64,000 bases of DNA, taken from an uncultured virus (IMG/VR IMGVR_UViG_3300025033_000013). Taxonomy: Duplodnaviria; Heunggongvirae; Uroviricota; Caudoviricetes. A program made the position numbers and the translations under genes. The DNA lies in IMG/VR virus record IMGVR_UViG_3300025033_000013. The stretch is one strand, 5' to 3'. Shown one piece after another: positions 10,509-60,367 of the stretch. How positions within the stretch are numbered: position 1 is the stretch's first letter; each line of letters starts with the position of its first letter. The notes under the pieces are model-generated. The model did no database searches, had not been told where the DNA came from, and saw only the letters and a list, made by a program, of their open reading frames with translations.

Positions 10509-11594
10509 CTACTTTTGTGCTTCGATTGAACTTTCGTAAGAAAAAGAATTTAAAAAATTTTCCCCTCTCAAAAAAGAAAAAATAAAAGAAATCACATCCA
10601 CAGTCCAGCCATTACCAAGCGCCTTAATTGCTTGTGTGTCTGAAATTGAGTTTGTATATCCATCAGGTACAGTTTGCAATCTTTCACACTCTAATCTTGT
10701 TAGTTTTCTAATTACACCCTCAATCTCATATAGTCCCGTTTTTCCACCAATCCCACCGCTATTTGCGTTTAGTGTTGCTGATTTTCCATTGCTTGAATAA
10801 ACTCTATTTCCTTGTGAAAAATTACGCTGTAATAATTTTCCATTATCAAGCCAAAGTTTATGTGTTGGTTTCATTACACCACCCAAGCAAACTAATCCAG
10901 AGTTTGAAGAATGTTTGTCAACAGGTATAAATAGCAAAGTATCTTTTGCAACGGTTGTCATTGCATTGCTTTTTTCTGTACCGTTCAACTCATATTTCTG
11001 AATTACTTTCCCATTCTCATCGTATCTACCTCTTTGTGCTAAACCTAAACTTTGCAATCCATCTTCGGTAATATCTTTTAGTAGGATGGTTTTATCGTTT
11101 GGTAATCCTTTTACTGGTATGTTTGTCCAATAATACCTAACTCTATTTTGTGCTGATACTAAATTTGAGTTTATCATTATTGGCTCTACACCTAAATAAC
11201 TTGAAATTATATTTTGGTATTCCTTTTTCATCTTTACATTTTCCAATAAAAAGTAAGTCGGATTACATTCGTTTTTCAATCTCACAAACTCAAAAAACAG
11301 TTTACTTCTTGGGTCATCAAAGTTTAGTTGCTTCCCTGCAAATGAAAACCCTTGACAAGGGCTTCCACCTATCAATAAATCAATCTTTGGTAAGTCAGCA
11401 CCTTTTACAGTCAAAACACTTCCTAATTGCTTTGTATTTGGATAATTTGCTTGTGTTACTTTTATTGGTGATGGCTCAATTTCAGAAGCAAAGTAATTTT
11501 CAACTTCAATTCCTTGTCGTTCTAACGCAATCTGTCCACAGCTAATACCATCAAACAAACTCAATACATTTATTTTTTCTTTTCCCACGCTCAT
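10509..11594 (-). CDS. DNA (cytosine-5)-methyltransferase
   Basis: Motifs SLFDGISCG (I), GGSPCQGFS (IV), LLENV (VI), QNRVRYYW (VIII) and LGNGW (X). Confidence 0.95.
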   Translation of the reverse strand: MSVGKEKINVLSLFDGISCGQIALERQGIEVENYFASEIEPSPIKVTQANYPNTKQLGSVLTVKGADLPKIDLLIGGSPCQGFSFAGKQLNFDDPRSKLFFEFVRLKNECNPTYFLLENVKMKKEYQNIISSYLGVEPIMINSNLVSAQNRVRYYWTNIPVKGLPNDKTILLKDITEDGLQSLGLAQRGRYDENGKVIQKYELNGTEKSNAMTTVAKDTLLFIPVDKHSSNSGLVCLGGVMKPTHKLWLDNGKLLQRNFSQGNRVYSSNGKSATLNANSGGIGGKTGLYEIEGVIRKLTRLECERLQTVPDGYTNSISDTQAIKALGNGWTVDVISFIFSFLRGENFLNSFSYESSIEAQK

Positions 11595-22700: not shown

Positions 22701-24079
22701 AGTATTTTCTTTATATATATAAATATTCCAAATTAAAATTTCCACCCTAAAATTCTTTTTGTTTTTCTTTATTGTTCCAAATTAAGTTTTGTGCTTAATA
22801 ATTCGGCACGAGAGCCACAATACCCTAACTGACATTTAAGCCATTCATTACAATCACTTTCAGTTCCTTGATACACGCAGTGCCCATTTTGTTCTACTTG
22901 GTATGTATCATTTAATCCAATCCTTATACATTTCACTTTCCCTGTGTGCTCTTACCATATTAGTTTTTCCACATCTGCATTGTGTTACTAGAAAATTTGT
23001 ATTGTTTTCCATAGGTATATCATACAATTTATTTTCAAATTTACACTTATGAAAACGATACATAACAGCATATAACCAAAATAGCGGGTTAGGTATGTTA
23101 ATTGTCCATTTTTCTTTCATATCAAGTTTATTTTTATATTCAACATTTGGTTTTAAAGTCCGCTACTTAGGTTATATGCAACCCGTTATACACTATTTAA
23201 CGAGCAAGTTTCAATTCAACAATAAATATTTCAACTGTTTCCTTTTCCAAATCATATAAATTCTTAGGATGTTTACTGTTACAGCACTTATCAATAAAAG
23301 AATCTATTTCATCTTGTGATGGTTTGTTAATGTAAGCGTTTTTACTATAATATTTGGTTTTTCCATCAAATGAAGCATATTTTCCTTTTGCACAAATTTG
23401 ATATAAAACTGTGCCTAACACCGTGTATAAAACATGGTGGGTTTCTGCGTTATTTAAAGTTTCGTTCATTCTATTAAGTTATTAGTAATTTGATAGTTTC
23501 GTGCGTGGCTTACTTGCCATACACTAAACGTTAGCACCCATTTGACCAATCATCAATATCCTCATCTTCAACTAATTCAATCTGACTATTACTATCTTCT
23601 ATTATTTTATTCAACATACCTAATCCATAAGAAGTTGCAGTTCCATAACTCTTTTTATGACATTTGTAGCAACTACCGCTAAAACCGATAAAATAATAGA
23701 AATCAGCATCTTGTTCAACTTTTTCAATTCCAGAATTTAACTTCCACCTGTCACCATTTAAATAATCACCACTCCAAGTTCCAAAAACTTTATAATAATT
23801 GTTTGATAGTTTTAATATTACCCACTTTTCAGGGGTTTCGGTTATATTTCTTTTCATAATTTTAATTTTTAAAAACGTGTTATAACAAGGTATATATGCA
23901 AGTGGGAGTTCTGTTGTTTATTCAACATTCGTTCTTCTATCAAACATTCTGTGTAATTGAAAGGTAAGTGCTTCTAATCGCCACCTGGCATATACACGCA
24001 AAACGTTATGTGTAAGTGTTCAGTTCATCGTTCTAACCAACATTTCGGTTGAAAAATTTAAAAGAAAATCCCACCCACT

Positions 24080-24640
24080 TTATTTAATTCTTTTTAATTT
24101 GATTTTATCATAATTCCATATAATTATTTGATGACCATCTCTGCTATAATATGGTTCTTTGCCATCAAAGCCTTTTGATTTTAAATATTCTTGTTCTAAA
24201 AAATCAATACTACTACCAGTCATCGGGTCTATATATGTTGCATATTTTTTATATTTATCAGTTTCAATAGGTCTAATTAAATCATTCCCATCTAAATTCT
24301 TAACAACATCACCATTAGGTTTAATTACCTTATCCATTTCATAAAACCCATTTTTAATTCCAAAATCAACGAGTTGTTCCCTATTTGGTTGTTCATTTGG
24401 TTTGGCTATTCTTAATTCCTCAAAATTTTCTATTACATATATATAATCACGTTTTCCAATAGATTCTATACCCCAATCATCAATATTTTTTGTTACATAA
24501 AAACCTTTACCCAATTGTCCTTGTTTCGGGTTATAGTTTTTATCAATTTTTAAATTTGGATTATCGGATAAATGATAAACTCTATTCTCATTCAAAAATT
24601 CTCGCATCGTTGTTTTTATAAATTGTTTCAAATCTTTCAT
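24080..24640 (-). CDS. cassette protein with IKTTMREFLNE motif, ADP-ribosyltransferase-like
   Basis: VYHLS...GQLGKGFYVT...LKSKGFDG...QIIIWN pattern typical of ART-like phage domains. Confidence 0.55.
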   Translation of the reverse strand: MKDLKQFIKTTMREFLNENRVYHLSDNPNLKIDKNYNPKQGQLGKGFYVTKNIDDWGIESIGKRDYIYVIENFEELRIAKPNEQPNREQLVDFGIKNGFYEMDKVIKPNGDVVKNLDGNDLIRPIETDKYKKYATYIDPMTGSSIDFLEQEYLKSKGFDGKEPYYSRDGHQIIIWNYDKIKLKRIK

Positions 24641-24767
24641 TGTTTCAAATCTTTCATTGTTTTATTTTTTCTCCCACCACACAAATTTAAGAAAAAATGT
24701 TATTATCCCCAATATCCCAAGTTCCATCATTATCAACCGATTTAATTTGATTTGGTTTAAATGTAAC

Positions 24768-24980
24768 GTGAACTACCCACCCACGCCAGAGGCGATGGGT
24801 TGGGCTTCGGGGGTCACAGACTCACCTAATGGTAACGCCTCATCCCGTTTTTGTTTATACTCCGACTGCATACCACAACCAGAGTTAATAAAAATATACA
24901 ACTTTATTTTTAAAAGTCAAATCTTTTTGTCGCTTACATCCCATTCACGCTAAAGCGATGAATGGGTTTTACGCTCCTTT
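24768..24980 (-). mobile_element. IS200/IS605-derived MITE inserted into an attC-like left arm
   Basis: Right end GTGAACTACCCAC and left end hairpin CCCATTCA..TGAATGGG-TTTTACGCTCC; near-identical to 44088-44300. Confidence 0.9.
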
Positions 24981-25066
24981 ATAAAACATACCCAATCAAG
25001 GTCTGTGGTTTATATCAACTGTTTACTATGGCTACGTTTCATACACACAACCGTTAGCTGCAAGTG

Positions 25067-26812
25067 CTACGTTCCCGTTTTCAATGATGGTTCGTGCATA
25101 TAAGCCGTAATAATATTTTTTTCTTCCCCACGCTCTTTGTCTGCTTGGGCAGCCATTTGGTTAAATATGTGAGTAATCATTCCAACTTCCCAACCATTAC
25201 CAGTCGCTTTTACTGTTTGGTTATCACTTATCTCATCACAATAATTGTCAGGCAAATTCATCAACCTACACCTTTCAATTTTATTGTAGTTCCTAAATGG
25301 TAATTTCCTATTAAAAGCGTCAGGGTGTCGCCCTATTTCCATTGTCGTTAAAACCGTGTCTTTTGCTACGGTAGTAAGGCAATTACTTTTATCTCGATTA
25401 GTTGCTCTTACTTCAAGGCATTGCGTAATTGGTATGGTTTTGTCATAATCTTGTCGTTTACCTAGTTCATCTAATCTACGCCCTAAAATAGTGGCTTTAT
25501 TCAATCTTCTGCCACGTATCGCACTTGGGCCAATCATTTCAGTATCTTCCAAAATATCTTCAAGTCCTATTCCTTTGTCGGTTGGTTCAGTAATATCGAA
25601 GTTTGCCCAATACAATCTCACACGGTTTTGAGCAGAAGTTAAAGAACTATTCAATTTTACTGGCTCAACACCCAAATGTTGGCTTATTACGTCTTGGTAT
25701 TCTTGCTTCATTACCACATTTTCAAGTAGCCAGTATTTAGGCTTCACTTCATTAAGCAACCGAACAAATTCAAAGAATAGTTTACTTCGTGGGTCTTCAA
25801 AGTTCAATTGCTTACCACTAAAACTAAATCCTTGGCAAGGAGAACCACCACATAAAAGGTCTATTCTTCCTTTAAATACGTTTAATCCTCCCTCATACTC
25901 AACCACCGTGACTTGTTCCTCCTTATGAAGTCGTAAGAAATCCCAGTAATTCTTTTCAATTTTGTCAACTTCATCCCATCTTTGTAATTCTTTGATAATT
26001 TCTTCAATAGAATTAATCTCTTCTTCTTTTCGGTCTCTTTCTTTTTTCTTGACCTCTCTTCGTAATCTATCTTCATCCGACTCTCCAAGTATTTCTTTCT
26101 CACTTCTGGAGTCCGCATCGCTTCTTTGGTTTTCTTTGAAATTAAATCCCTCTCCTTTTTGTCTTGAAATCTTTTCTTCAATGTTTGTGATATTCTCTTT
26201 TTCTGAATATCTGTCTTTGGCACTCCCTTTTGACTCTCTAATATTTTCTTGCAAATTTCGGGTGTGAAACTCATAGTCATACCCCCAGCTGCTACATTGT
26301 AGTTTAAAGGGTTTTCTACAATCATTTTCATCTCCATTCTTTCTGCTTCCTGTATTGTTCCTACCTTTAGTAATACTTCCCATACTATTGTTTGAAAACC
26401 GTATTTCCTCAATGCATTGTAAAGTGGTAAATTCTTGTACTTCTTGTCCTTCATTCGACTTTTGTGTTCCGACTTTCGTTGACATAGCGTATTTCTTGTC
26501 AAGCCAATATAATATTTCCCATTCGGAAATTTTGCTTTGTAAATTGTTATCATAATTGCAAATATACGAATAAACCTCCGATAAGTAAAGTAATTTTACT
26601 TTTACTTTGGTTACATCACCAATCTGTTTTGTATTTGGGTGGTTGCTTTGAGTTACCTTAATTGCGTGTTTGTCAATCTCGGAAGCAAAGTATTTATTTA
26701 CTTTAATTCCTGCACGTTCTAAAGCTACTTGTCCACAACTAATGCCATCAAATAAAGACAGTACGTTAATGCCCTCGCTCAAAAAAATATTATTACTACG
26801 TTCGTTTTTCAT
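25067..26812 (-). CDS. DNA (cytosine-5)-methyltransferase with ~243-codon in-frame insertion
   Basis: Motif I at the N-terminus; GGSPCQGFS, LLENV and GNGW follow the insert at ~25871-26599. Confidence 0.85.
   Translation of the reverse strand: MKNERSNNIFLSEGINVLSLFDGISCGQVALERAGIKVNKYFASEIDKHAIKVTQSNHPNTKQIGDVTKVKVKLLYLSEVYSYICNYDNNLQSKISEWEILYWLDKKYAMSTKVGTQKSNEGQEVQEFTTLQCIEEIRFSNNSMGSITKGRNNTGSRKNGDENDCRKPFKLQCSSWGYDYEFHTRNLQENIRESKGSAKDRYSEKENITNIEEKISRQKGEGFNFKENQRSDADSRSEKEILGESDEDRLRREVKKKERDRKEEEINSIEEIIKELQRWDEVDKIEKNYWDFLRLHKEEQVTVVEYEGGLNVFKGRIDLLCGGSPCQGFSFSGKQLNFEDPRSKLFFEFVRLLNEVKPKYWLLENVVMKQEYQDVISQHLGVEPVKLNSSLTSAQNRVRLYWANFDITEPTDKGIGLEDILEDTEMIGPSAIRGRRLNKATILGRRLDELGKRQDYDKTIPITQCLEVRATNRDKSNCLTTVAKDTVLTTMEIGRHPDAFNRKLPFRNYNKIERCRLMNLPDNYCDEISDNQTVKATGNGWEVGMITHIFNQMAAQADKERGEEKNIITAYMHEPSLKTGT
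25882..26553 (-). CDS. GIY-YIG homing endonuclease nested in an alternate frame of the MTase
   Basis: TIY...YYIGLT..R..EH...LYNALRKYG...E...YNV motifs, followed by NUMOD3-like basic repeats. Confidence 0.85.
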   Translation of the reverse strand: MITIYKAKFPNGKYYIGLTRNTLCQRKSEHKSRMKDKKYKNLPLYNALRKYGFQTIVWEVLLKVGTIQEAERMEMKMIVENPLNYNVAAGGMTMSFTPEICKKILESQKGVPKTDIQKKRISQTLKKRFQDKKERDLISKKTKEAMRTPEVRKKYLESRMKIDYEERSRKKKETEKKKRLILLKKLSKNYKDGMKLTKLKRITGISYDFIRRNKSRWLSMRED

Positions 26813-27071
26813 ATCAAAGTTTTTTGTTTAAAATCCGCACCAGACATTAAGTATTCTTTGATTATTGTTTTTATAAATTTTCTCAATTCCATTTGTCCTT
26901 TATTTTATATATAAATATTCCAAATTTAAAATTCTACTAATAAAGCGTACTGGGCTAACAAATTGTATAAGCAATAACTGTTAGATGTTTTTACTATTGC
27001 TGTTGTTAATATTATATTTTCTACATCTAATCAATTGTCCTGTGTTACTTTTCATTTTTGTATTTATCTTA

Positions 27072-27557
27072 TTATATTGCTTTTAATTTCTTTTTAAGGT
27101 CTCTAATGGCCGCTTTGATAATACGTTGTTTCTCATCTGTAAGCTTGTTAGTGCCTTTATATCTATCAGATGTAACTCTACTATTAAAAGTAGCAGCTAT
27201 AGCCTTTAAATCGGCTATTTCTAATGCCGTTTCTTGTTGTGAAGTTGCTTTACCACCTTGCTTTTTAACTTCGACCAAGACTTGTTTCTTACCGTAACGT
27301 CTAGGTGTGTCAGGTTTAATTTTAATTTCTTGATAAAGTTGTTTATGCCTATCAGAAACCAATATCACATCTTGGTGAATAGTTTCAAGAGATTCAACTT
27401 CTTTAGGTGTTAACGTACCATTTTCAGCGGATTCTAATAAGGTATTAAAACCATATGTACCAGTTTTGTCGATGTGCACTCTTTGAAGTAAAGGGTCTTT
27501 GTTGATTAATCTAATTGTTTTAATTGAATTGAATTCTAATGTTTTTGTAATTTCCAT
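27072..27557 (-). CDS. hypothetical protein
   Basis: 161 aa ORF preceded by TATCTTTG (caaagata at ~27583). Confidence 0.7.
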   Translation of the reverse strand: MEITKTLEFNSIKTIRLINKDPLLQRVHIDKTGTYGFNTLLESAENGTLTPKEVESLETIHQDVILVSDRHKQLYQEIKIKPDTPRRYGKKQVLVEVKKQGGKATSQQETALEIADLKAIAATFNSRVTSDRYKGTNKLTDEKQRIIKAAIRDLKKKLKAI

Positions 27558-27906
27558 GATGTAGTTTTTAATTATTATGATACAAAGATAAAAAGAATGT
27601 TTGATATATCCTAATAAAATCTTGGTTTTTTTTCTTCACAGATTTGTTTTATTAAAAATCGCTTATAATTTGGATTACTTTTTTCCATGTAATACCATAA
27701 TCTACTAGCATTATCATTATTACTCCATGAGGTGCCGACAAAGGCTTTAACTTTTTTCTTTAATTTTCTGGGAATACGAATATTGCCATAAAACGGGCTG
27801 ATTGTTTCAGGTGCTATAAAAACGAAAAAACCAAATAATTTTTAATTTATACGAAACGGAGCGTAAAACCCATTGGTCGTTTCACCAATGGGATGTAAGC
27901 GACACA

Positions 27907-28311
27907 CTAACCTTGTGATAAGATATATTGACGTATGGTTTCTGGACTTGCTTCACCTATTGAACAAACGAAATAACCTGCTGACCAGAACATATCTTTG
28001 TACCAGTATTCTCTACGAAGTAAGGTTGGGTATAATTGCCAAATGCGATATGTAGATTCTTGTTTTAACCTACGGACTATTTGTGATATTGAAAGACGTG
28101 GTATGTAACGGATAAGGAAATGTATATGGTCTATATCTGACTCGAAGACCTCTACACTAAAATCTGAATTATCTATGATATTGTTGAATATTAAGTACAT
28201 ATCTTCCTTTAGTTGATTAACTAATAATGGTTTACGATACTTTGTAACCAATATGATATGTGCTTTTAGATAATGTTTTGAATGATTTGTAGAAATGTAA
28301 TTTGATTGCAT
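27907..28311 (-). CDS. tnpA: IS200/IS605 Y1 transposase
   Basis: HIILVTKYR, DHIH (HUH), FWSAGYF and YI..Q motifs. Confidence 0.95.
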   Translation of the reverse strand: MQSNYISTNHSKHYLKAHIILVTKYRKPLLVNQLKEDMYLIFNNIIDNSDFSVEVFESDIDHIHFLIRYIPRLSISQIVRRLKQESTYRIWQLYPTLLRREYWYKDMFWSAGYFVCSIGEASPETIRQYILSQG

Positions 28312-28458
28312 AATGTAGTATTTTGTTTAAATTATTTACAACCAAAGACGAAATGATTTAAACAAAATATGGCATCAAATGAAATAAATTTACAAAAAAC
28401 TTAACAAATCGTATAAAATATTGTACTTTTACAAAAGTTTAGACTATTTAATAATAGA

Positions 28459-29655
28459 GTGAAGAATATACACAGAACATATAAATTTGAATTATTACCT
28501 AATAAGGAGCAGAAAACCTTATTGGATAAGCACTTTGGTTGTGTTAGGTATATTTACAATCACTTTTTAAATGAACGTAAGGAACAGTATCAAGCAGATA
28601 AAAAAACCGATAACTATTACGGACAAGCCAAAACATTAACTGAATTAAAAAAACAAGAAGACACCATTTGGTTGAAAGAAGTGAATAGCCAAACACTTCA
28701 ATTTGCTTTACGCTCTTTAGACACCGCTTATGTGAACTTCTTTAGAGGTAACGCTAAGTTCCCAAGATTTAAATCAAAAAAGAATAAAAATACATTTACA
28801 GTACCACAACATACTAAAGTTATGGATGGCAGAATATACGCACCTAAATTTAAAGGTGGTATTAAGGTGAATATTCATAGAGAAATTAAAGGTGAGGTGG
28901 GTAAATTCACAATATCTAAAACTCCAACTGGGAAGTATTTTGTTTCAATTTTCACTGAACAAGAATATCATCCAAGTAAAAAAACTTATAAATCGGTTGG
29001 AATAGATTTAGGTTTAAAAGACTTTGCTATCACTTCTGATGGAATAAAGTATAAAAATAATAGATACACAAAAAGATATGAAAGAAAATTAAAGAAAGCA
29101 CAACAACATCTTTCTCGTAAACAGAATGGTAGTAATGGGTTTGAAAAACAAAAACTCAAAGTTGCCTTAATTCACGAGAAAATCACAAACACAAGGCAAG
29201 ATGTATTACATAAAGTAAGTAATGAAATTGTAAATAATTATGATGTAATATGCCTTGAAGATTTAAATATTAAAGGAATGGTTAAAAACAGAAAATTATC
29301 CAAACATATCTCTGATGCAAGTTGGGGTACGTTTGTTAGATTTGTTGAGTACAAAGCAAATTGGAATGATAAAACTGTTGTTAAAATCAATCGTTGGTAT
29401 CCCTCAAGTAAGACTTGTAGTGTTTGTGGATATATAAATCAAGACTTAAATCTTTCAGATAGAGAGTGGACTTGCAATAATGGTCATAAATTAGACCGTG
29501 ATTTAAATGCAAGCACCAATATCTTAAATGAAGGGTTAAAAATATATCGTGAGGAACTTGCGATTACAAAGGTGGAGAGTAAATCAGACTTTGGCAACAA
29601 AGCACACTCTATGAAACCAGAAGCCCATCCCATCAGCTATGCTGTGGGTGGGTAG
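28459..29655 (+). CDS. tnpB: RNA-guided endonuclease TnpB
   Basis: HTH N-terminus; RuvC motifs GIDLG, LEDL and DRDLNAS; zinc finger. Confidence 0.95.
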   Translation: MKNIHRTYKFELLPNKEQKTLLDKHFGCVRYIYNHFLNERKEQYQADKKTDNYYGQAKTLTELKKQEDTIWLKEVNSQTLQFALRSLDTAYVNFFRGNAKFPRFKSKKNKNTFTVPQHTKVMDGRIYAPKFKGGIKVNIHREIKGEVGKFTISKTPTGKYFVSIFTEQEYHPSKKTYKSVGIDLGLKDFAITSDGIKYKNNRYTKRYERKLKKAQQHLSRKQNGSNGFEKQKLKVALIHEKITNTRQDVLHKVSNEIVNNYDVICLEDLNIKGMVKNRKLSKHISDASWGTFVRFVEYKANWNDKTVVKINRWYPSSKTCSVCGYINQDLNLSDREWTCNNGHKLDRDLNASTNILNEGLKIYREELAITKVESKSDFGNKAHSMKPEAHPISYAVGG

Positions 29656-30586
29656 TTCACTTGGCTCTATTTATAATTTCTTGTATTACTTCGTCATGTC
29701 GTTTAACTATCTCAGCGGTCCGTTTTTTAGTTTTCCTCATATTTAAATCTAGGGCAGTGATAAATGATTCCAATAACGTATGATTAATTTTAGCTGTTCT
29801 TCGTTGATATAGAATATCTTTTAGTTTCATGACCATAAAATGTGAATCACACATATGGTCAATTTCAGTACCTTCAATATTATGATATTGATTTGATAAG
29901 TCTTTATCTAATTCAGATAATTCTTTTTTAGCTTGTTCTCTTAATGATAGTAATTGGTCAAAAGTCTCATGAATGTTATCGATTAGACTTTTAATGTCAT
30001 TAGTGTCTACTTTTTTACTCAAATTATCTTCCTTGCCTACCTAATGAATGATTTATTGTTGAAGAAAAATTCATAAGAACTTTTTGAATTTGTCCTAATT
30101 CATCTTCATCAAACATGTAAGTACCACCTTCATCATTTTGCATTTTCTTAACTTTCTTTCTGAATTTAGACCTGTTGGTAGCTTCACTATTATTAGACCA
30201 TTCTTCACCTTTCATTCTACGAACAATTGCTGCATGATTGATAAGGTCATTATCTAATAACTTGACAACTTTTTCATAATCGTTATCTTTAGCCGCTTCA
30301 TCGTTAGATTTAGGCTTAACAGCATGCTGAATATGTGGGTTGGGAGCTTCAGATAGCCCAACACTTATTTCTCGCAATATTTTTTTAATCTTATTTTTTT
30401 CCATTATATTATAACTTTACACATCAAACTTATTACAGTTATACTATAAATATACTGAAAAGTAATAAAAAGACGTAAAATATTATATTAATTCTAGGTT
30501 TTCAGGTTCATTCCAGAAAGGTGGATATCCAAACTCTTTATATAATTTACCCTGACCATTATACCAATTGACCCCTATGTTATGTA

Positions 30587-46812: not shown

Positions 46813-46886
46813 TGCGGAATGTCGGATTCGAACCGACAGCTCAACCTTGGAAGGGTCACATGTTAGCCATTGGACACCAATCCCGC
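46813..46886 (-). tRNA. tRNA-Gly(TCC)
   Basis: Cloverleaf with anticodon loop CT-TCC-AA and T-loop TTCGAAT. Confidence 0.9.
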
Positions 46887-46989
46887 AAGTCGGTGTCTCA
46901 ACTACCTTTCACACCTAGCAGTTCACTAAGGAGTGTTGAGTCAGCTCTCAACAATATATTACTTATACAGTTGCTGGGGTTGTTTTACC

Positions 46990-47865
46990 TCATATTTCTT
47001 TCAACCAATTACCCTTATGAAGCAATTGGAATTTTAATTTACGTAAAGACTTATCTCTAATCAAAGCAATTCTTGCTTTGCTAAGTTCTAACATATTTGA
47101 TACTTCTTTGATACTTACTGGTTCTCTACCATCTAAGCCATATAATAATATTAATATGGTTTTCTCTTCATCATTTAACCTACTAAGTAATACTTCAGTT
47201 CTAATGTCAGAATCACCTAACTTAACTAAGTCATTTGAATCGAAATCATTTGAATCTTTTAACAAATCTAATAACGTTATAGAATCATCATCTTCTCCTA
47301 AAGGTGCGTCTAATGATTGTACCTTATTACTTAAATTATCAATAAAAAACTCTATTTCAGAATCACTAAACTCATTACCTAAATGGTCTACCAATTCATT
47401 GTAAGCTGGAGTTCTTTCTAACTTTTGCTCCAACAAGGTATATTCTTTTTTCATTTTAAATGATTTAATATATTTACCAAGTGGTGGTCTAACAATTTTA
47501 CTGTTTGCTTGTATGTGTGCTATTATTGTTTGTCTAATCCACCATACAGCATATGATATAAATTTAAAACCTCTTGATGGGTCAAACTTTTCTGACGCTT
47601 TAAGCAACCCTATATTACCCTCATTGATTAAATCTTCAAATTTAATCCCATATATTTGATATTGTTTTGCAACACTTATTACAAATCTTAGGTTATGTTT
47701 TACTAATAATTCTTTAGATTTTTCATCACCATCAAACGCTTTTACCGCAATTTCATACTCTTCTTCAGGTGTTAAAATCTTAATTGATTGAATGTCATTG
47801 AAGTACATTTGTAATGAAGGTGAACTTCTATCTGTTATCGATGGTGTTACCACTAATTCTCTCAT
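46990..47865 (-). CDS. RNA polymerase sigma-70 family factor (second paralogue)
   Basis: NLRFVISVAKQY and FDPSRGFKFISYAVWWIRQ motifs. Confidence 0.95.
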   Translation of the reverse strand: MRELVVTPSITDRSSPSLQMYFNDIQSIKILTPEEEYEIAVKAFDGDEKSKELLVKHNLRFVISVAKQYQIYGIKFEDLINEGNIGLLKASEKFDPSRGFKFISYAVWWIRQTIIAHIQANSKIVRPPLGKYIKSFKMKKEYTLLEQKLERTPAYNELVDHLGNEFSDSEIEFFIDNLSNKVQSLDAPLGEDDDSITLLDLLKDSNDFDSNDLVKLGDSDIRTEVLLSRLNDEEKTILILLYGLDGREPVSIKEVSNMLELSKARIALIRDKSLRKLKFQLLHKGNWLKEI

Positions 47866-47988
47866 ATCTTATTTTTAATTTACTACAAAGATACGAAATA
47901 TTAATGTAATAACCAAATCATACCTTATAATTTAACAACTTTGGTCACAATATCTTGTACCACAAGTTTCACAATCCAAATGGCTCGG

Positions 47989-48061
47989 AGCACCCACTCG
48001 TACACGATACGAGACCCTTGAAATACCAATCCAAAATTCTAACCACTTAAACTATGGGTGC
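47989..48061 (-). tRNA. tRNA-Thr(GGT)-like, non-canonical T-loop
   Basis: Perfect acceptor GCACCCA/TGGGTGC, anticodon loop TT-GGT-AT, T-loop ATCGTGT. Confidence 0.6.
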
Positions 48062-48170
48062 ATTCGGTAATTAACGGTAACGTTTTGTGATTTTCTATAA
48101 AATCAATCCATTGTAAACCAATTAATTACACTTTTTATACCACCTTAACGGTAACATCTGGTAATTTTTG

Positions 48171-48257
48171 TGACCCCGACAGGATTCGAACCTGTGACAT
48201 TTCCGTTAAAAGCGGAAAGCTCTAAGGATTTCTCCAAACCAACTGAGCTACGGGGCC
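48171..48257 (-). tRNA. tRNA-Lys(TTT) with enlarged D-loop
   Basis: CT-TTT-AA; the D-loop contains extra GGAGAAATCC. Confidence 0.85.
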
Positions 48258-48370
48258 ATTAACCTATTTTTTAAAGATGTTAGGTTAAAACATCTCCCTC
48301 TTTATCTTTATTTCATTTTGCGACCTAATCTTTTATATATAATATATCAAAAAGTACAAAAGTTCCAAAG

Positions 48371-48444
48371 TTACTCCACTAGGGCTCGAACCTAGACTCT
48401 TCTGGCTCAAAACCAGACGTGTTAACCAATTACACCATGGGGCA
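48371..48444 (-). tRNA. tRNA-Gln(TTG)
   Basis: TCTGG-TT-TTG-AG-CCAGA. Confidence 0.9.
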
Positions 48445-48594
48445 ATATTTACTAATATTCCATATCGTAATATGCGATATGTCACAATTCATAATGTATC
48501 TGACTTAAGGTAATTAATCTTATCACCAGATTGTAGCCTGACCTCTCCACGAAGCTGAAGCTAGACATCAATAATTGCTTTCTACATGTATAGT

Positions 48595-48673
48595 TGGGAA
48601 GGAGGGATTCGAACCCCCGAAGCCTAAGCACCTGATTTACAGTCAGGCCGTTTTGACCGCTTACCTACTTCCC
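48595..48673 (-). tRNA. tRNA-Tyr(GTA)
   Basis: CCTGA-CT-GTA-AA-TCAGG with long variable arm. Confidence 0.85.
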
Positions 48674-48818
48674 AATTTTAAAGAGGACGACACCAAAACC
48701 GCTAAGTTCAGGTTTGTTATAAACATACCCAATATGCCCTGTCATCTTACTTGTCACTTTAACTATACTCGCTATAACTGGCTCGATAGTCTACTCACCA
48801 AATAATATCCTCTTTTTG

Positions 48819-48897
48819 TGGGGCACCATGTCGGAATCGAACCGACCAGCCTTCTGGGTTACAAATCCAGTACCTTCTCCTATTCAGTCTATGGTGC
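48819..48897 (-). tRNA. tRNA-Thr(TGT)
   Basis: TT-TGT-AA loop; encoded CCA. Confidence 0.85.
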
Positions 48898-48987
48898 ATA
48901 TCATCCAGTGTTAAGTGCTTTATATGTTGGTATGCGATATAGGCAAATGATAATTTTGGTTCAGTTCAGACTATCAACTGAACTTTG

Positions 48988-49060
48988 TGACCCCCACGGG
49001 CTTCGAACCCGTAACCCTCTCCTTAAAAGGGAGATGCCCGTCCACTTGAGCTTCGAGGTC
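48988..49060 (-). tRNA. tRNA-Lys(TTT)
   Basis: TCTCC-CT-TTT-AA-GGAGA. Confidence 0.9.
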
Positions 49061-49236
49061 ATTATAAGAGACAAGACATTGTTAACCATGCTACCACGTA
49101 TTTCTTAGGTTCACTATTCTCTTATTTCATTTTACGACCTAATCTAAATCCTTCTGGAATCTAGACGATGCCCCAATAAATCTAATTTTATGCTAGGATA
49201 CGTTTCTCCTTCTATGAATTAGTAACAGTCTGGTCG

Positions 49237-49319
49237 TCGGGAAAGTCGGAATCGAACCGACCATACTGAAGCTTCCAAGGCCCCGTAGCCTTTTTTCATT
49301 CTACCTTGGTCATTTCCCG
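49237..49319 (-). tRNA. tRNA-Pro(TGG), atypical D-arm
   Basis: Acceptor CGGGAAA/TTTCCCG; CT-TGG-AA loop. Confidence 0.7.
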
Positions 49320-49388
49320 TTTTTTAATATATTCTTTTAATTTATACATAAGTAAAGATTTTGAACCAAAATCCAAAAAATTTTCATG

Positions 49389-49475
49389 TCTAAGGGGTGG
49401 GATTCGAACCCACGATGTTATTTCTAACTCTTGCACCCAAGGCAAGCGAGTCTAGCCATCTGCTCTAACCCCTAG
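49389..49475 (-). tRNA. tRNA-Pro(TGG) with long variable arm
   Basis: CTTGC-CT-TGG-GT-GCAAG; variable arm AGTTAGAAATAACATC. Confidence 0.8.
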
Positions 49476-49533
49476 ATAAAAATACAATATTTCAAAGAAC
49501 TCCAATTTTATAGATTTGGAAACTATTAAACGC

Positions 49534-49572
49534 AAAAAACCCAGTTGAAATTGTTTTATCAACTGGGTTTTT
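49534..49572 (-). terminator. intrinsic terminator (attenuator) upstream of tRNA operon 1
   Basis: AAAAACCCAGTTGA-loop-TCAACTGGG followed by TTTTTT on the minus strand. Confidence 0.85.
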
Positions 49573-49601
49573 ATATATTGTTTATATAACTATATTCTAC
49601 A

Positions 49602-49700
49602 TTAGAATTCTGTTATGTCACTACAACGTATACTCAGTTGACCTTGGGACTTCCCGCCCTTCGGTTGATACTGTTTCGTATATGTTGTATAATTTCTCAT
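49602..49700 (-). CDS. putative attenuator leader peptide MRNYTTYTKQYQPKGGKSQGQLSIRCSDITEF
   Basis: 32-aa ORF between promoter and terminator; it contains the anti-terminator segment TCAACTGAGT. Confidence 0.75.
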   Translation of the reverse strand: MRNYTTYTKQYQPKGGKSQGQLSIRCSDITEF

Positions 49701-49726
49701 TATTTCTTATTTTGGGATTTACCCTT

Positions 49727-49805
49727 GTTATTAATATATAGTGCAAATATAGTAAATGTTTTAATATAAAACAAGTTTTTTTGCAATTATTTTTAAATTA
49801 TTTTT
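49727..49805 (-). promoter_or_regulatory. Bacteroidota-type promoter block, duplicated at 62575-62652
   Basis: TATATTTG (-7) at 49744-49751, inside a ~75-nt block near-identical to the one before tRNA operon 2. Confidence 0.8.
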
Positions 49806-50043
49806 TAACTACTTGATTATCAGTCTTATATTTTTTTTATATAATTCATCAATTTCTAAATTTTCACTGATACGATATACTTCAGTATATAATAATTCAA
49901 CATTATATTTAGTTTTCGCCTTATAAGTTACTTGAACGACAATATCATTTTTATCAAAAGCATCCATTAAAGCTAACTCAGTTGGAATGTATGATAATTC
50001 ATTCTCACATTTATATTTAGTTCTAATCATCACTCTAGGGACT

Positions 50044-50160
50044 GTGAACTACCCATCCACACTTCGTGATGGATGGGCTTCAAGTTTCATTGACTTGCCC
50101 AACGACAACGCCTCCACTTGTTTTTGTTTATTGTCCGAAATGCGTCCCACATTCAGACAT
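50044..50160 (-). mobile_element. IS200/IS605 right-end remnant
   Basis: GTGAACTACCCATCCAC..GATGGATGGGCTTCAAGTTTCATTGAC, similar to the copy at 52543. Confidence 0.75.
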
Positions 50161-50277
50161 GAAAATTCTTTTCATTTGCTTTCCATGATTTTATGGAAGT
50201 GGCAACATTCACAATTGCATTTTCAGCTTGGTTACAGATACCAACTCAATGCTGGTCTGGCTACACTCCCCATTTAG

Positions 50278-50367
50278 TGGTACAAGATGGACTCAAACCA
50301 CCAACCTTGCCTACTTCAACCGTTTATCGGATGTTTCAACACGCTCTATCAATTGAGCTACTGCGCC
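50278..50367 (-). ncRNA. tRNA-like RNA with extended anticodon arm
   Basis: Acceptor, D and T arms are recognisable; ~34 nt replaces the 17-nt anticodon arm. Confidence 0.6.
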
Positions 50368-50431
50368 TTTCAAAATGAATATGTGTGGTAGGCAACTCAT
50401 ATCGTCATGTATTCACATATTCATTTTATAG

Positions 50432-50503
50432 TCGGAATGGTAGATTTGATACTACATTACCTTCCAGCAATAGGAAGTGTCTTCAAATTAGACGATATCT
50501 CCG
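50432..50503 (-). ncRNA. degenerate tRNA-like element
   Basis: GTCT/AGAC D-stem, CTTCC-TATTGCT-GGAAG arm, non-canonical T-loop. Confidence 0.45.
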
Positions 50504-50504
50504 T

Positions 50505-51330
50505 TAAAGGCTTGAGTGTTGGGCCCTTGTAATACCTTTTGCTTTCGGTTTCCCTATTTCACACACCTCATGTTTCCACTTGGTAGGCATCATTAAGACA
50601 GTCTTGGAGTGACTGCAAACTCTTTTACCACAGATTGATATAAACCAATTTCACTACCTAGCTCCCTTGCGAGGATGAGAAGGTGCGACCCTCCTACTAA
50701 CGATACCTAGTCTCCGTTTCAGCGTTACCCTTGTGAGGTTAATAACTGCCCACATATTTCAGTGGGATAACTTAATTTTGTATCCGTGACCGCTAGAACT
50801 TTTACTTATCTTTGCTTTTTTAACATAAAAGTGGTTGGGCTATCGCCCCACCTAATTGATTAGCGATGCTCTCTCTTACAGGATGTGTCTAGCAGTTGAC
50901 AAACGTGCTGGCTTTTGACCAGTTTAGTTTACGACACCCCGTTGCAGTGTTTTACCACCACATCATTTCTTCATTACTTAGATTTACAAATTAACTTAAC
51001 TTAATATAACGCTTGGTTTCCCAAGATTATAATGAAGCATCATTATTAAACATTCCATAACAAATCATGATGAAATCAGCCTATCCGCTTTTTACACGTT
51101 TCAACCGAAATCTACTAACCGCCTATTGATATTTCTATCTCAACTCCCCGAAGCTAGGGAGTGAACTCGTTAATCTCAGCCATTCAGCCATTGACCCTTG
51201 TTCGTAGTTAATATGCTTACACAGATTGTTGACCCGAAAGCCCTCAACGCAATGCCTTGTTTGGACATCACTTTATACCTATCACTAGGTTTATCTTTTC
51301 CCGAAGGAAGGAGCATAAGCACCCCATTAT
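50505..51330 (-). ncRNA. large (~820 nt) structured ncRNA, GOLLD/ROOL-like candidate
   Basis: ORF-free and GC-richer than its flanks, with many hairpins (e.g. CTTCGG loops), its own TATATTTG promoter (51367-51374), and tRNA-like genes next to it. The family assignment is not verified. Confidence 0.6.
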
Positions 51331-51817
51331 TTTCAATATTTTAATGAACGTATTTTAATTCTTGTGCAAATATACAACTTATTTTTTAATTAAACAAGTT
51401 TTTTGCGATTTTTTTTAAAAAAGTTTTAAGAGCCTCACTTAAAGTTGTTTTATAATGATTTCGCCTCATTATAACTTTCCTATTTTTACTCTGCAAATGT
51501 ACATAATATATATTTAAAAAACAAGTAAAATAACAAAAAATTTTAAACTTTTTTTAACTACTTGATTTTCAGCATTTAAAAAATAAAAAGGGCTTGAAGT
51601 TTCTCTCTTCGGCTGGTGAACCAGGTGATTTGGATAGCCCCTTTTAAAAATGATTGGTATCTATATTCGTTTAACATGATAGCTAAATCCCTATCTAGAT
51701 ACCAATTCATACGTTTGGTATCTACATGTGCAAGAAATTTATTTTCCATGGAAAACATTTTATGGTTCCCATATGGAAGTTTTTTAGAATTGTCATAGTT
51801 GTCATAATATTATTATT

Positions 51818-52396
51818 TTAAAGATTAATATACGCTTTTAAACCACCATAAACATTGAGTCTCCATTCCCAAGGTCTGTAAGAACCAGAGGGGTCATCAT
51901 ATTTGGCGGCCAAATCCCCTCGTTGCATTAATGTTGTTTTTAAATTAAGACTTAACCACTTGGTTAAGAATATAGCAAAATCATCAGTGATTTCAAGACT
52001 TATATAACTTAAGTTATCTTCAGGGAAATTTCTTATAATAACCCCAGCACCACCATAAATTGCGTTATCAAAATAACCTAAATTAAAAGGCAATTTATTA
52101 TTTCTAAAATTGTAACCCCCTTGAAGGCCATAACGAGTGAAATTGAATTCATATAAATCAGCATACTCAAAAGTCAAACCAATTACAAGACTACCAGTTC
52201 CATCATAATCACCTTCCATCATAAATTCAAATCTCACATCTGGAGTAAAAGGTTCATTACCATAATCATCTATAGTCATTGCTAACTTAATATCTTGATA
52301 AAGACTAAAAGATAGCCTAGGGTCTTCTCCAGCAACTTGCGCTGAAGATATACTAAATGTTAATAAAACGATTATATATAGTAATACTTTTTTCAT
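51818..52396 (-). CDS. signal-peptide protein, possible outer-membrane beta-barrel
   Basis: MKKVLL..SSAQ signal peptide, alternating beta-strand pattern, C-terminal YGGLKAYINL. Confidence 0.55.
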   Translation of the reverse strand: MKKVLLYIIVLLTFSISSAQVAGEDPRLSFSLYQDIKLAMTIDDYGNEPFTPDVRFEFMMEGDYDGTGSLVIGLTFEYADLYEFNFTRYGLQGGYNFRNNKLPFNLGYFDNAIYGGAGVIIRNFPEDNLSYISLEITDDFAIFLTKWLSLNLKTTLMQRGDLAAKYDDPSGSYRPWEWRLNVYGGLKAYINL

Positions 52397-52542
52397 AATG
52401 ATTGGTTTTAATTGTGTAATTATACATAATTAAAACAAAAAAAACAAATTTATTTATAAAAATTCAATAGCTAATGTTAGGGTTGGCGTCCAATCACCGC
52501 TATAATCATCATCTACATCATAATAATGTGTGTAACCTACAT

Positions 52543-54952: not shown

Positions 54953-54953
54953 A

Positions 54954-60320: not shown

Positions 60321-60367
60321 ATTAATAAATATCACAAAATAATCGAAACGACCACATAAGTTTAGGT

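What the first reader, a model, noticed from the sequence alone, without database searches (positions are those of the whole stretch)
25067..26812. Homing endonuclease overprinted inside a methyltransferase without breaking its frame
Seen: relative to the paralogue at 10509, ~729 nt is inserted between MTase motifs I-III and IV. The MTase frame stays stop-free through the insert, giving low-complexity charged sequence. A different frame on the same strand encodes a 223-aa GIY-YIG nuclease with its own TATATTTG element 5 nt before the ATG (26559-26566). I see no intein C/S...HN ends or group I intron core. Inference: a splicing-free parasite tolerated as a disordered loop, or removed by an unknown RNA or translational bypass.
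Basis: partly seen in the sequence, partly recalled or inferred. Interest (0 to 1): 0.7.

Follow-up and report, generated by a model that had tools for sequence, protein, structure and literature searches.

The report
Hidden GIY-YIG nuclease inside phage methylase
A selfish DNA-cutting enzyme gene sits in a shifted reading frame inside a phage cytosine-methyltransferase gene, and its codons avoid stops in the host frame so the methylase can be read straight through; the same trick was published in 2025 for an unrelated nuclease type.

Summary
A 729-nt insert (25871..26599, minus strand) lies between motifs III and IV of a C5 DNA methyltransferase (25067..26812). A 223-aa I-TevI-like GIY-YIG endonuclease (25882..26553) is encoded in the +1 frame, and the methylase frame has no stop.

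This is not chance. Synonymous shuffles of the nuclease give about 11 stops in the methylase frame, and 0 of 100,000 shuffles give none. All 17 related loci fetched, 13 distinct counting the window, are also open.

In the insert only the nuclease frame is under purifying selection. The methylase frame evolves like non-coding DNA apart from the missing stops. The methylase flanks are conserved (dN/dS 0.07-0.25).

Near-identical inserts sit in diverged methylases, and insert-free alleles reach 94-95% identity. No intron or intein signature was found.

Best reading: a splice-free mobile homing endonuclease translated through as a mostly disordered loop.

The principle is published for HNH nucleases in mycobacteriophage methylases (ShiLan domain, PMC11855218). 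This is a GIY-YIG, C5-methylase, probably Bacteroidota-phage variant. The scan noted the same element twice before on other DNA. No expression data exist.

The parts
25067..26812 (-). C5 DNA methyltransferase ORF, 581 aa, read straight through the insert
   Evidence: ORF list. Pfam PF00145, E 2.6e-31, in two stretches. The AF2 model matches DNMT3 catalytic domains at TMt 0.72-0.76.
26600..26812 (-). Methylase N-terminal part, aa 1-71, with motifs I-III (LFDGISCG, ASEID, GDVTKVK)
   Evidence: 73% identical to the paralogue. F21, D22, G23 and E45 are invariant in 38 of 38 aligned homologs.
25871..26599 (-). Mobile insert, 729 nt, corresponding to methylase aa 72-314
   Evidence: Junctions were compared with insert-free alleles L028, L021, L026 and L047 and with the paralogue. 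The insert has the same span in 28 of the 120 best methylase homologs.
25882..26553 (-). GIY-YIG homing endonuclease gene, 223 aa, in the +1 frame relative to the methylase
   Evidence: PHROG homing-endonuclease families, E 1.9e-16 and 1e-14. AF2 pLDDT 87.4; the best PDB match is the I-TevI catalytic domain 1mk0 (TMt 0.79, rmsd 2.2). dN/dS 0.08-0.23.
26559..26566 (-). TATATTTG, a likely sigma-A-type -7 promoter box for the endonuclease, 5 nt before its ATG
   Evidence: Sixteen of the 19 coding-strand copies in the window lie outside ORFs of 80 aa or more, some 16-18 nt before a gene start. The consensus TAnnTTTG lies at -12 to -5 in flavobacteria (PMC9723704). Promoter function here is inferred.
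25067..25870 (-). Methylase C-terminal part, aa 315-581, with motif IV (GGSPCQGFS, catalytic Cys326), ENV, QNRVR, the target-recognition region and GNGW
   Evidence: G323, S324, P325, C326, E364, N365, V366, R397, R399, G538, G540 and W541 are invariant in 38 of 38 sequences. Insert-free homologs are 94-95% identical.
10509..11594 (-). Insert-free paralogous C5 methylase in the same genome. Its empty site (V63-K70) lies at about 11385..11408.
   Evidence: The site is 68 of 96 nt identical to the closest empty site, L028.

Best explanation
The insert is an intron-free, intein-free mobile element consisting almost entirely of an I-TevI-like GIY-YIG homing endonuclease gene. It sits in the surface loop between motifs III and IV of phage C5 DNA methyltransferases.

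The endonuclease is read in the +1 frame. It is probably expressed from its own TATATTTG promoter as a leaderless or nearly leaderless mRNA. It probably cuts insert-free methylase alleles in co-infecting phages, so that repair copies the insert in (homing).

The host gene survives because the endonuclease lineage has purged every codon pair that would make a stop in the methylase frame: no NNT codon precedes AAN, AGN or GAN. The ribosome therefore translates the methylase straight through. This yields a 581-aa enzyme with a 243-aa hydrophilic, mostly disordered loop, and the two catalytic halves still assemble.

Shown computationally:
- Dual coding.
- Stop purging in all relatives.
- Purifying selection on the endonuclease frame and on the methylase flanks, but not on the loop peptide.
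- A mosaic distribution of inserts among methylases.

Inferred:
- Expression of both proteins.
- Absence of splicing.
- Methylase activity.
- Nuclease activity and its target.
For: 1. Stop purging.
- Window: 0 stops against about 11 expected, and 0 of 100,000 shuffles are stop-free. T-ending codons number 0 of 95 before AA/AG/GA codons against 40 of 128 elsewhere.
- The same holds in 10 further distinct loci: 5.6-13.8 stops expected, 0 observed, and T3 counts of 0 of 70 to 0 of 96 (0 of 26 in the truncated L018 ORF).
- It also holds in L101 and L102: 0 of 95 and 0 of 97.
- The methylase frame is open in 17 of 17 fetched loci, 13 distinct counting the window. These include endonucleases only 35-39% identical to the window's.

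2. Controls. Free-standing relatives L003, L004, L005 and L103 have 28, 55, 52 and 44 stops in the equivalent frame.

3. Selection.
- Inside the insert, dN/dS is 0.08-0.23 in the endonuclease frame.
- It is 0.9-2.7 in the methylase frame and 0.8-3.2 in the third frame.
- The methylase flanks give 0.07-0.25, including pairs that both carry the insert.
- Catalytic motifs are invariant in 38 of 38 sequences, 22 of them insert-bearing.

4. Decayed nucleases.
- L018 has two in-frame stops in the endonuclease, yet the methylase frame is open.
- P0003 keeps a shortened insert in frame.

5. Mobility.
- Inserts 90-97% identical sit in methylases whose flanks are 51-76% identical.
- The window and P0002 have flanks 92% and 91% identical but inserts only 50% identical.
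- Insert-free alleles reach 94-95% identity.

6. No room for or sign of splicing.
- Only 46 + 11 nt of the insert lie outside the ORF.
- Rfam gives no match, and Pfam finds no Hint domain.

7. Structure.
- In the AF2 methylase model, aa 142-270 have pLDDT below 50 (10-residue block means 27-33).
- The core matches DNMT3 catalytic domains (TMt 0.72-0.76) across the insert.
- The endonuclease model (pLDDT 87.4) best matches the I-TevI catalytic domain.
Against: - There is no expression evidence of any kind.
- Two database proteins, P0122 and P0134, begin in the methylase frame and switch into the endonuclease frame. In those contigs the methylase frame is broken. This may be real decay or an assembly indel.
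- Ascertainment is not fully neutral. The protein hits are long ORFs by construction. The DNA loci were found through 7-8-residue methylase-frame peptides at the 5' end of the insert.
- AF2 gives the insert ends (aa 71-117, 131-140, 285-314) moderate to high confidence. Yet the loop peptide shows no amino-acid-level constraint. This is unresolved.
- The paralogue in the same genome has an empty site and is not invaded.
- Pfam GIY-YIG matches only 1 of 10 family members (E 2.6e-4), and the C-terminal HTH match is weak.
- Methylase activity with a 243-aa loop beside the catalytic motif is untested.
Confidence: 0.8

Rival explanations
1. The insert is removed before or during translation, by an unrecognised self-splicing RNA or a long translational bypass. 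The open frame would then be irrelevant.
For: Homing endonucleases of this family are usually intron-borne: relatives are named 'group I intron endonuclease', and the nearest solved structure is intron-encoded I-TevI. Divergent introns can escape Rfam models.
Against: A removed segment needs no open frame, yet stops are purged in 13 of 13 distinct copies. Only 46 + 11 nt lie outside the endonuclease ORF. Rfam gives no match even at E<=10. The open frame persists when the endonuclease decays (L018).
Confidence: 0.04
2. The frame is kept open to avoid polarity or mRNA decay affecting downstream genes, not for methylase function. The insert-bearing methylase would be catalytically dead.
For: There is no activity data. 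The loop sits next to catalytic motif IV. The ShiLan paper argues that its own phage methylase is dispensable (PMC11855218, section 4.1). A second methylase in this genome could compensate.
Against: Methylase flanks have dN/dS 0.07-0.25, including pairs in which both carry the insert (L008/L010 0.12, L006/L017 0.21). All catalytic motifs are invariant in the 22 insert-bearing sequences. The predicted core fold is intact.
Confidence: 0.08
3. The loop peptide has been co-opted. Its ends fold into a clasp or small domain that is itself selected, or the loop is cut by a protease to give a two-piece methylase.
For: AF2 gives aa 71-117 and 285-314 pLDDT of 55-89, with strands and helices. Synonymous variation in the endonuclease is low in its first ~27 codons (0.09-0.23, against 0.3-0.46 elsewhere). 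The natural deletion variant P0003 keeps both ends.
Against: dN/dS in the methylase frame is 0.9-2.7, like the non-coding frame. The low synonymous variation at the 5' end may instead reflect the promoter and start signals. AF2 covariation is confounded by the overlapping gene.
Confidence: 0.06
4. The open frame is a by-product of the purine-rich, Lys/Glu-rich endonuclease sequence, and nothing is selected.
For: The endonuclease is rich in AAR and GAR codons. T-poor sequence carries few stops.
Against: Shuffles that keep the protein and its codon usage still give about 11 stops, and 0 of 100,000 are stop-free. Lys/Glu/Arg-rich sequence in fact creates the risk (T|AA, T|AG, T|GA). Free-standing relatives have 28-55 stops in that frame.
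Confidence: 0.01

Closest known systems
ShiLan domain and the Pacc40 gp60 insertion: out-of-frame HNH endonucleases hidden in mycobacteriophage DNA methylases (Gosselin et al. 2023, PMC9957025; Arsenault, Gosselin and Gogarten 2025, PMC11855218)
   Same: An insertion in a phage DNA methylase at a conserved site. No stop in the host frame. An endonuclease ORF in another frame fills almost the whole insert. No intron or intein signature. Patchy distribution among diverged methylases. The loop is predicted not to disturb the methylase. Leaderless expression is proposed. (Abstract, sections 3.6 and 4, and passages read.)
   Different: The nuclease here is GIY-YIG (I-TevI-like), not HNH. The 2025 paper has 0 occurrences of 'GIY-YIG', 'cytosine' or 'promoter'. 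The host gene here is a C5 methylase, with the insert between motifs III and IV. The phage carries Bacteroidota-type promoters and comes from metagenomes, not from actinophages. The start is an ATG behind its own -7 box, not a GTG. Stop avoidance is quantified here by codon-level tests, and selection is split by frame.
I-TevI, the GIY-YIG homing endonuclease of the phage T4 td group I intron
   Same: The N-terminal GIY-YIG catalytic domain matches: model against 1mk0 gives TMt 0.79 and rmsd 2.2 over 96 columns. Conserved Y5, Y15, R26, E74 and N86 are present. The layout is a long linker plus a C-terminal helical DNA-binding part. It invades a conserved enzyme gene of a phage.
   Different: I-TevI rides in a self-splicing intron (recalled). 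Here no intron is detectable, and the host frame is translated through. Sequence identity to phage I-TevI-like genes is only 27-37%.
Inteins in the same methylase family (P0089, P0091)
   Same: Selfish endonuclease-bearing elements sit in the same C5 methylases a few codons away, at GGSPC|QGFS. The host frame is continuous (Pfam Hint, intein-splicing and LAGLIDADG domains).
   Different: Inteins encode the nuclease in the host frame and remove themselves by protein splicing. The GIY-YIG insert has no Hint domain and no Cys/Ser/Thr or His-Asn junction residues.
Out-of-frame endonucleases inside inteins (preprint 10.1101/2025.01.02.630785, passages read; 10.64898/2026.09.14.751524, search listing only)
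   Same: A homing endonuclease is encoded in a shifted frame of an element whose host frame stays open.
   Different: There the carrier is an intein that still splices out. Here nothing is known to remove the insert.
Free-standing endonucleases that split host genes, such as mobE in nrdA of Aeromonas phage Aeh1 (recalled, not checked here)
   Same: Intron-less and intein-less invasion of a conserved phage enzyme gene.
   Different: There the host gene is cut into two ORFs whose products reassemble. Here it remains one ORF.

Membership tests
Out-of-frame endonuclease insertion in a phage DNA methylase (ShiLan-type layout) | The insertion is absent from close homologs and sits at a conserved site of a methylase gene | tested here: met
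   Insert-free alleles reach 94-95% identity. Junctions are fixed after V-K and before G-x-I-D-L in all copies.
Out-of-frame endonuclease insertion in a phage DNA methylase (ShiLan-type layout) | No stop codon when the insert is read in the host frame | tested here: met
   There are 0 stops in the window and in 17 of 17 fetched loci. Shuffle tests give 0 of 100,000 (window) and 0 of 20,000 (9 of 11 copies tested).
Out-of-frame endonuclease insertion in a phage DNA methylase (ShiLan-type layout) | A homing-type endonuclease ORF in another frame fills nearly the whole insert | tested here: met
   The ORF takes 672 of 729 nt. It matches PHROG homing-endonuclease families.
Out-of-frame endonuclease insertion in a phage DNA methylase (ShiLan-type layout) | The nuclease is of the HNH type, as in all published cases | tested here: not met
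   The fold and motifs are GIY-YIG. An HNH version does exist at another site of the same methylase superfamily (L104).
Out-of-frame endonuclease insertion in a phage DNA methylase (ShiLan-type layout) | Patchy distribution with the insert phylogeny decoupled from the host gene | tested here: met
   Across 253 pairs, Spearman correlation of insert against flanks is 0.34-0.40, against 0.65 between the two flanks. There are many pairs with inserts 90-97% identical and flanks 51-76% identical.
GIY-YIG homing endonuclease (I-TevI-like) | GIY...YIG motifs and conserved Arg, Glu and Asn in the catalytic domain | tested here: met
   IYKA..F..GK.YIG is present. Y5, Y15 and R26 are at least 90% conserved, and E74 and N86 are invariant in 38 sequences. 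Pfam PF01541 reaches E 2.6e-4 in only 1 of 10 members.
GIY-YIG homing endonuclease (I-TevI-like) | GIY-YIG alpha/beta fold | tested here: met
   AF2 pLDDT is 87.4. The top three PDB matches are the I-TevI catalytic domain (prob 1.00, TMt 0.70-0.79), followed by the UvrC GIY-YIG domain. Foldseek E is only 3.8e-3.
GIY-YIG homing endonuclease (I-TevI-like) | Site-specific cleavage of the empty allele, and homing | not testable with these tools
   Inferred only from the mosaic distribution.
Group I intron | Conserved ribozyme core (P3-P9) flanking or overlapping the ORF | tested here: not met
   No Rfam match at gathering thresholds or at E<=10. Only 46 + 11 nt lie outside the ORF.
Intein | Hint splicing blocks, an N-terminal Cys/Ser, and a C-terminal His-Asn followed by Cys/Ser/Thr | tested here: not met
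   No Hint or intein Pfam domain. The insert starts with V-K-L-L and ends with F-K followed by G. True inteins in the same family are detected readily (P0089, P0091).
C5 cytosine DNA methyltransferase (PF00145) | Motifs I, IV (PCQ with the catalytic Cys), VI (ENV), VIII (QxRxR) and X (GNG) in order, and the fold | tested here: met
   Pfam E 2.6e-31. The motif columns are invariant. Foldseek matches DNMT3A/B catalytic domains at E 7e-16. Activity was not tested.

The most novel reading that the evidence does not exclude
Being translated through may be a third general way, beside introns and inteins, for homing endonucleases to live inside essential-looking coding sequence, and it has arisen independently in unrelated nuclease superfamilies.

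In C5 methylases of environmental phages, a GIY-YIG lineage (this insert) and an HNH lineage (L104) each occupy their own conserved site. Both can sit in one gene (P0063, 849 aa).

In the GIY-YIG lineage the stop purge is a heritable, codon-level adaptation of the nuclease itself: no NNT codon precedes AAN, AGN or GAN. It is older than the split between subfamilies that are now 35-39% identical.
Probability: 0.55. Interest if true: 0.6.

Novelty: new variant of a known kind. Interest (0 to 1): 0.5.

Why it matters
Homing endonucleases are thought to persist inside genes only if an intron or intein removes them. The 2023-2025 ShiLan work showed one exception, an HNH nuclease in actinophage methylases.

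This locus shows the same solution in a different nuclease superfamily, a different methylase class and a different phage-host world. It also carries a clean quantitative signature, complete avoidance of one class of codon pairs. That signature can be used to search for such hidden genes.

Gene callers normally miss the nuclease, and the host protein is annotated as an over-long methylase with an unexplained linker. The system is small enough for direct tests of three questions:
- How large an unstructured loop a C5 methylase tolerates next to its catalytic motif.
- How a leaderless internal gene is expressed inside a translated ORF.
- Whether homing works without any splicing.

Tried and rejected
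- **RNA evidence.** No RNA holder is listed among the 24 runs found; all are DNA contigs from aquifer, groundwater or hot-spring metagenomes and may be the source. Laying 4 DNA runs showed no contig joined exactly across the insert. The only joint, 25138 to 26776 (skips 1637 nt, side 30, runs X1 and X10), removes or replaces almost the whole methylase gene, not the insert.
- **Named phages.** Megablast of 24000-28500 against GenBank phages gave no match. tblastn of the endonuclease gave only 27-37% identical I-TevI-like genes, none at 80% coverage or more.
- **Searching with the endonuclease protein alone.** In viral contigs this found only distant free-standing relatives. The copies were reached through an alignment of the insert read in the methylase frame.
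- **PDB sequence search.** A search with the endonuclease profile gave nothing meaningful (E 0.15 or worse). The fold search was needed.
- **The 80 methylase loci fetched with insert-free P0006.** None carried a ~700-nt insert. Three 'stop in between' rows came from a pattern spanning tandem methylase genes.
- **Synonymous-rate profile.** It dips at endonuclease codons 1-27 and 58-72, but this does not track the AF2-confident segments cleanly. It is not used as evidence.
- **TAnnTTTG as a general pattern.** It is not enriched in the window: 122 against 115 expected. Only the exact TATATTTG on the coding strand shows an intergenic bias.
- **Shuffle test on the HNH insert of L104.** It is not significant: mean 0.78 stops, with 6523 of 20000 shuffles stop-free.
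- **Closer free-standing control.** The search with P0132 returned only a distant relative.
- (last line), 57 and 58 were script errors, and one search used a term that was too short. All were corrected and rerun.
Full report
**What is there**

On the minus strand, ORF 25067..26812 encodes a 581-aa protein, and ORF 25882..26553 encodes a 223-aa protein in the +1 frame (offset 259 nt). The long ORF is a C5 DNA methyltransferase: Pfam PF00145 matches at E 2.6e-31 in two separated stretches.

BLASTP against the 361-aa paralogue at 10509..11594 aligns two parts:
- aa 13-71, at 73% identity
- aa 316-579, at 39% identity

Codon-level comparison with insert-free alleles places the insert after G-D-V-T-K-V-K and before G-R-I-D-L-L. 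This is aa 72-314, or 729 nt at 25871..26599. The native linker G-x-D-L-P-K is shortened to G-R. The endonuclease ORF leaves only 46 nt of the insert upstream and 11 nt downstream.

The window is part of a 93,027-bp IMG/VR virus record rated 100% complete. This is the only same-strand nested ORF pair of 100 aa or more in that record.

**Is the open frame chance?**

No. A methylase-frame stop arises when an endonuclease codon ending in T precedes a codon starting AA, AG or GA.
- Of 95 such positions in the window, none has T. Of the other 128 codons, 40 end in T.
- Shuffling synonymous codons among positions, which keeps both the protein and the codon usage, gives a mean of about 11 stops. None of 100,000 shuffles is stop-free.
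- The third frame has 29 stops.

**Relatives**

The methylase has thousands of homologs. Among the 120 best:
- 90 lack the insert. Many of these are 342 aa long and 94-95% identical to the window protein outside the insert.
- 28 carry an insert of exactly the same span.
- P0003 carries a shortened insert that is still in frame.
- P0102 is a variant.

These protein hits are biased towards open frames, so I also fetched DNA. I used an alignment of the insert read in the methylase frame (A1). The searches were seeded by 7-8-residue peptides at the 5' end of the insert. They returned:
- 6 viral loci
- 9 metagenome loci
- 2 loci from genome bins

Three loci are identical to the window, L008 equals L009, and L006 is nearly the same as L016. 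That leaves 13 distinct copies counting the window.

The methylase frame is open through the insert in 17 of 17 loci.

The shuffle test was run on the window and 10 distinct loci. It expects 5.6-13.8 stops for the ten intact endonuclease ORFs (3.0 for the truncated L018 ORF), and none is observed. The stop-free shuffle counts were:
- 0 of 20,000 in 9 of the 11 copies
- 12 of 20,000 in L011
- 275 of 20,000 in L018, whose intact endonuclease ORF is only 77 aa

T-ending codons before AA/AG/GA codons number 0 of 70 to 0 of 97 in the twelve copies with an intact endonuclease and 0 of 26 in L018, against about 30% elsewhere. This holds for endonucleases only 35-39% identical to the window's (L011, L020).

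Free-standing relatives serve as controls. L003, L004, L005 and L103 have 28, 55, 52 and 44 stops in the equivalent frame.

**Which frame is selected?**

Within the insert, pairwise Nei-Gojobori estimates are:

| Frame | dN/dS |
|---|---|
| Endonuclease frame | 0.08-0.23 |
| Methylase frame | 0.9-2.7 |
| Third frame | 0.8-3.2 |

The loop peptide therefore has no detectable amino-acid constraint. Only stops are removed.

The methylase flanks give dN/dS 0.07-0.25. This includes pairs in which both genes carry the insert: L008/L010 0.12, L006/L017 0.21 and L007/L018 0.16. The catalytic motif columns are invariant in 38 of 38 aligned sequences, 22 of them insert-bearing.

L018 is telling. Its endonuclease has two in-frame stops and a one-codon deletion, yet its methylase frame is intact.

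**Mobility**

Inserts that are 90-97% identical (read in the methylase frame) lie in methylases whose flanks are only 51-76% identical and whose target-recognition regions differ. Conversely, the window and P0002 have flanks 92% and 91% identical but inserts only 50% identical.

Synonymous divergence is much lower inside the insert than in the flanks. Insert-free alleles are common. This is the pattern expected of homing between diverged alleles.

**What the nuclease is**

- PHROG homing-endonuclease families match at E 1.9e-16 and 1e-14. A family labelled 'homing endonuclease with GIY-YIG motif' matches at 6e-8.
- A profile search finds 103 relatives, many carrying Pfam GIY-YIG and NUMOD3, some named 'group I intron endonuclease'.
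- Y5, Y15 and R26 are at least 90% conserved, and E74 and N86 are invariant in 38 sequences.
- An AlphaFold2 model (mean pLDDT 87.4) best matches the I-TevI catalytic domain: 1mk0, probability 1.00, TMt 0.79, rmsd 2.2 over 96 columns, though E is only 3.8e-3. UvrC's GIY-YIG domain comes next.
- Pfam's own GIY-YIG model reaches E 2.6e-4 in only 1 of 10 members, and the C-terminal helix-turn-helix match is weak.

**Splicing**

- Rfam finds no intron at gathering thresholds or at E<=10 on 24700-27100.
- The 57 nt outside the ORF cannot hold a ribozyme core.
- There is no Hint domain, and the junction residues are not those of an intein.
- Genuine inteins a few codons away in the same family are recognised readily (P0089, P0091).
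- Above all, a segment removed from the RNA or skipped by the ribosome would not need an open frame.

**Structure**

The AlphaFold2 model of the 581-aa protein (38-sequence alignment, mean pLDDT 64.9) has aa 142-270 below pLDDT 50 (10-residue block means 27-33). The insert ends (aa 71-117, 131-140, 285-314) reach 55-89.

Foldseek aligns the model to DNMT3A/B catalytic domains at E 7e-16 and TMt 0.72-0.76, over about 560 alignment columns. The two halves are thus predicted to assemble across the loop.

Whether the insert ends truly fold is open. The dN/dS result speaks against selection for a fold.

**Expression signals**

TATATTTG at 26559..26566 matches the sigma-A -7 box TAnnTTTG of Bacteroidota. 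In Flavobacterium psychrophilum this box spans -12 to -5, and 5.5% of mRNAs there are leaderless (PMC9723704, passages read).

In the window, 19 copies of TATATTTG lie on the coding strand and 16 of them fall outside ORFs of 80 aa or more. Several have TTG about 20 nt upstream and a gene start 16-18 nt downstream. The general pattern TAnnTTTG is not enriched.

With 5 nt between the box and the ATG, the endonuclease mRNA would be leaderless or nearly so. This is inferred.

One relative sits on a 49-kb contig of a Sediminibacterium (Bacteroidota) bin. Another sits on a 3.5-kb contig binned with an archaeon, which I take to be a binning artefact. A Bacteroidota host is likely but not shown.

**Prior art**

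Arsenault, Gosselin and Gogarten (Genes 2025, PMC11855218) describe an insertion in mycobacteriophage DNA methylases. I read the abstract, sections 3.6 and 4, and passages. Their insertion has these features:
- It has no stops in the host frame.
- It shows no intron or intein signature.
- It is predicted to form a loop.
- They also describe a second case, Pacc40 gp60.

Gosselin et al. 2023 (PMC9957025, passages) showed its patchy distribution. The 2025 paper contains no occurrence of 'GIY-YIG', 'cytosine' or 'promoter'.

My full-text searches for out-of-frame or hidden endonucleases found only these papers:
- the two ShiLan papers
- a genome announcement (listing and abstract only)
- two preprints on out-of-frame endonucleases inside inteins (one read in passages; one from the listing only)

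None mentions an out-of-frame GIY-YIG. Subscription journals and supplements are not covered.

The scan itself noted this same GIY-YIG element twice before on other genomes (e1-5389559, e1-5729970).

**Evidence against and limits**

- There are no expression data. No RNA run is listed, and the DNA contigs laid add nothing on splicing.
- P0122 and P0134 are single ORFs that start in the methylase frame and switch to the endonuclease frame. In those contigs the methylase is broken, either by decay or by an assembly indel.
- Ascertainment of the DNA loci is close to neutral but not fully so.
- The paralogue in the same genome has an empty site and is uninvaded. It is 68 of 96 nt identical to the L028 site, and 23 of 36 nt identical to the window's 5' flank. 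Either the nuclease does not accept it or something protects it.

**Verdict**

The element works like the published ShiLan-type insertions but fails their one family-specific feature, the HNH nuclease. I file it as a new variant of a known kind.

Confidence in the read-through, splice-free mechanism is 0.8. Interest is 0.5.

Noticed in passing
P0063 (849 aa); L104:720-2747 with the inner ORF L104:1997-2644: The same C5 methylase superfamily carries a second read-through insert of about 220 aa between RLQTVPD and GYT..GNGW. [quoted passage not shown] The methylase frame is open, and the third frame has 27 stops. P0063 carries both the GIY-YIG and this HNH-type insert in one gene. The shuffle test on L104 is not significant.
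   Followed up: partly
P0123, P0124, P0125, P0130: Endonucleases 42-48% identical to the window's are called as ORFs that begin with 8-20 residues of motif I of another C5 methylase family (MLKVATVCSGIGSPE...). Here the nuclease is fused in frame to the start of the host gene, which is a different mode of invasion. No DNA was obtained (one search found only a distant relative).
   Followed up: partly
P0122 and P0134: These single ORFs run from the methylase N-terminus in the methylase frame into the endonuclease frame, at endonuclease residues ~43 and ~56. They are frameshifted copies or assembly indels, and they count as counter-examples to the open-frame rule.
   Followed up: no
P0089, P0091: True inteins (Hint, intein-splicing and LAGLIDADG domains) sit at GGSPC|QGFS in the same methylase family, about ten codons from the GIY-YIG site. 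This region of motif IV is a hotspot for selfish elements.
   Followed up: no
window 24880-25000 (-), just downstream of the methylase stop: A repeat of about 106-121 nt contains a hairpin (CCCATTCA...TGAATGGG) followed by TTGACT and a TATATTT(T/G) box. It looks like a terminator-promoter cassette. The 93-kb genome gives 10 matches to it (E <= 0.01), the query's own place included: 3 further copies at 94-96% identity, 4 partial copies at 83-92%, and 2 short matches of 22-27 nt. Contig depth there is several-fold higher and many contigs branch.
   Followed up: partly
window 24775-24870 (-): A G+C-rich stretch lies between that cassette and the next gene (24080..24640). It has no Rfam match and was not examined further.
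   Followed up: no
window 27907-28311 (-) and 28000-30000: An IS200-like Y1 transposase (Pfam Y1_Tnp, E 1.4e-33) lies about 1.1 kb upstream of the methylase. GC and AT skew invert in 28001-30000, suggesting an inserted element on the other strand.
   Followed up: no
window 46816-62373 (-): Fifteen tRNA genes lie in clusters. Near-identical promoter regions with TATATTTG occur at 49744 and 62592, and again at 21371 and 21932.
   Followed up: no
window 25138 to 26776: In two DNA runs (X1, X10) a contig joins these points, skipping 1637 nt (side 30, 'between: not known'). A related genome therefore lacks or replaces almost the whole methylase gene.
   Followed up: no
P0038-P0041, P0072, P0032: Relatives of this methylase occur as tandem fusions of two C5 methylases (about 590 aa), or fused to an N6/N4 methylase domain (PF01555).
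   Followed up: no
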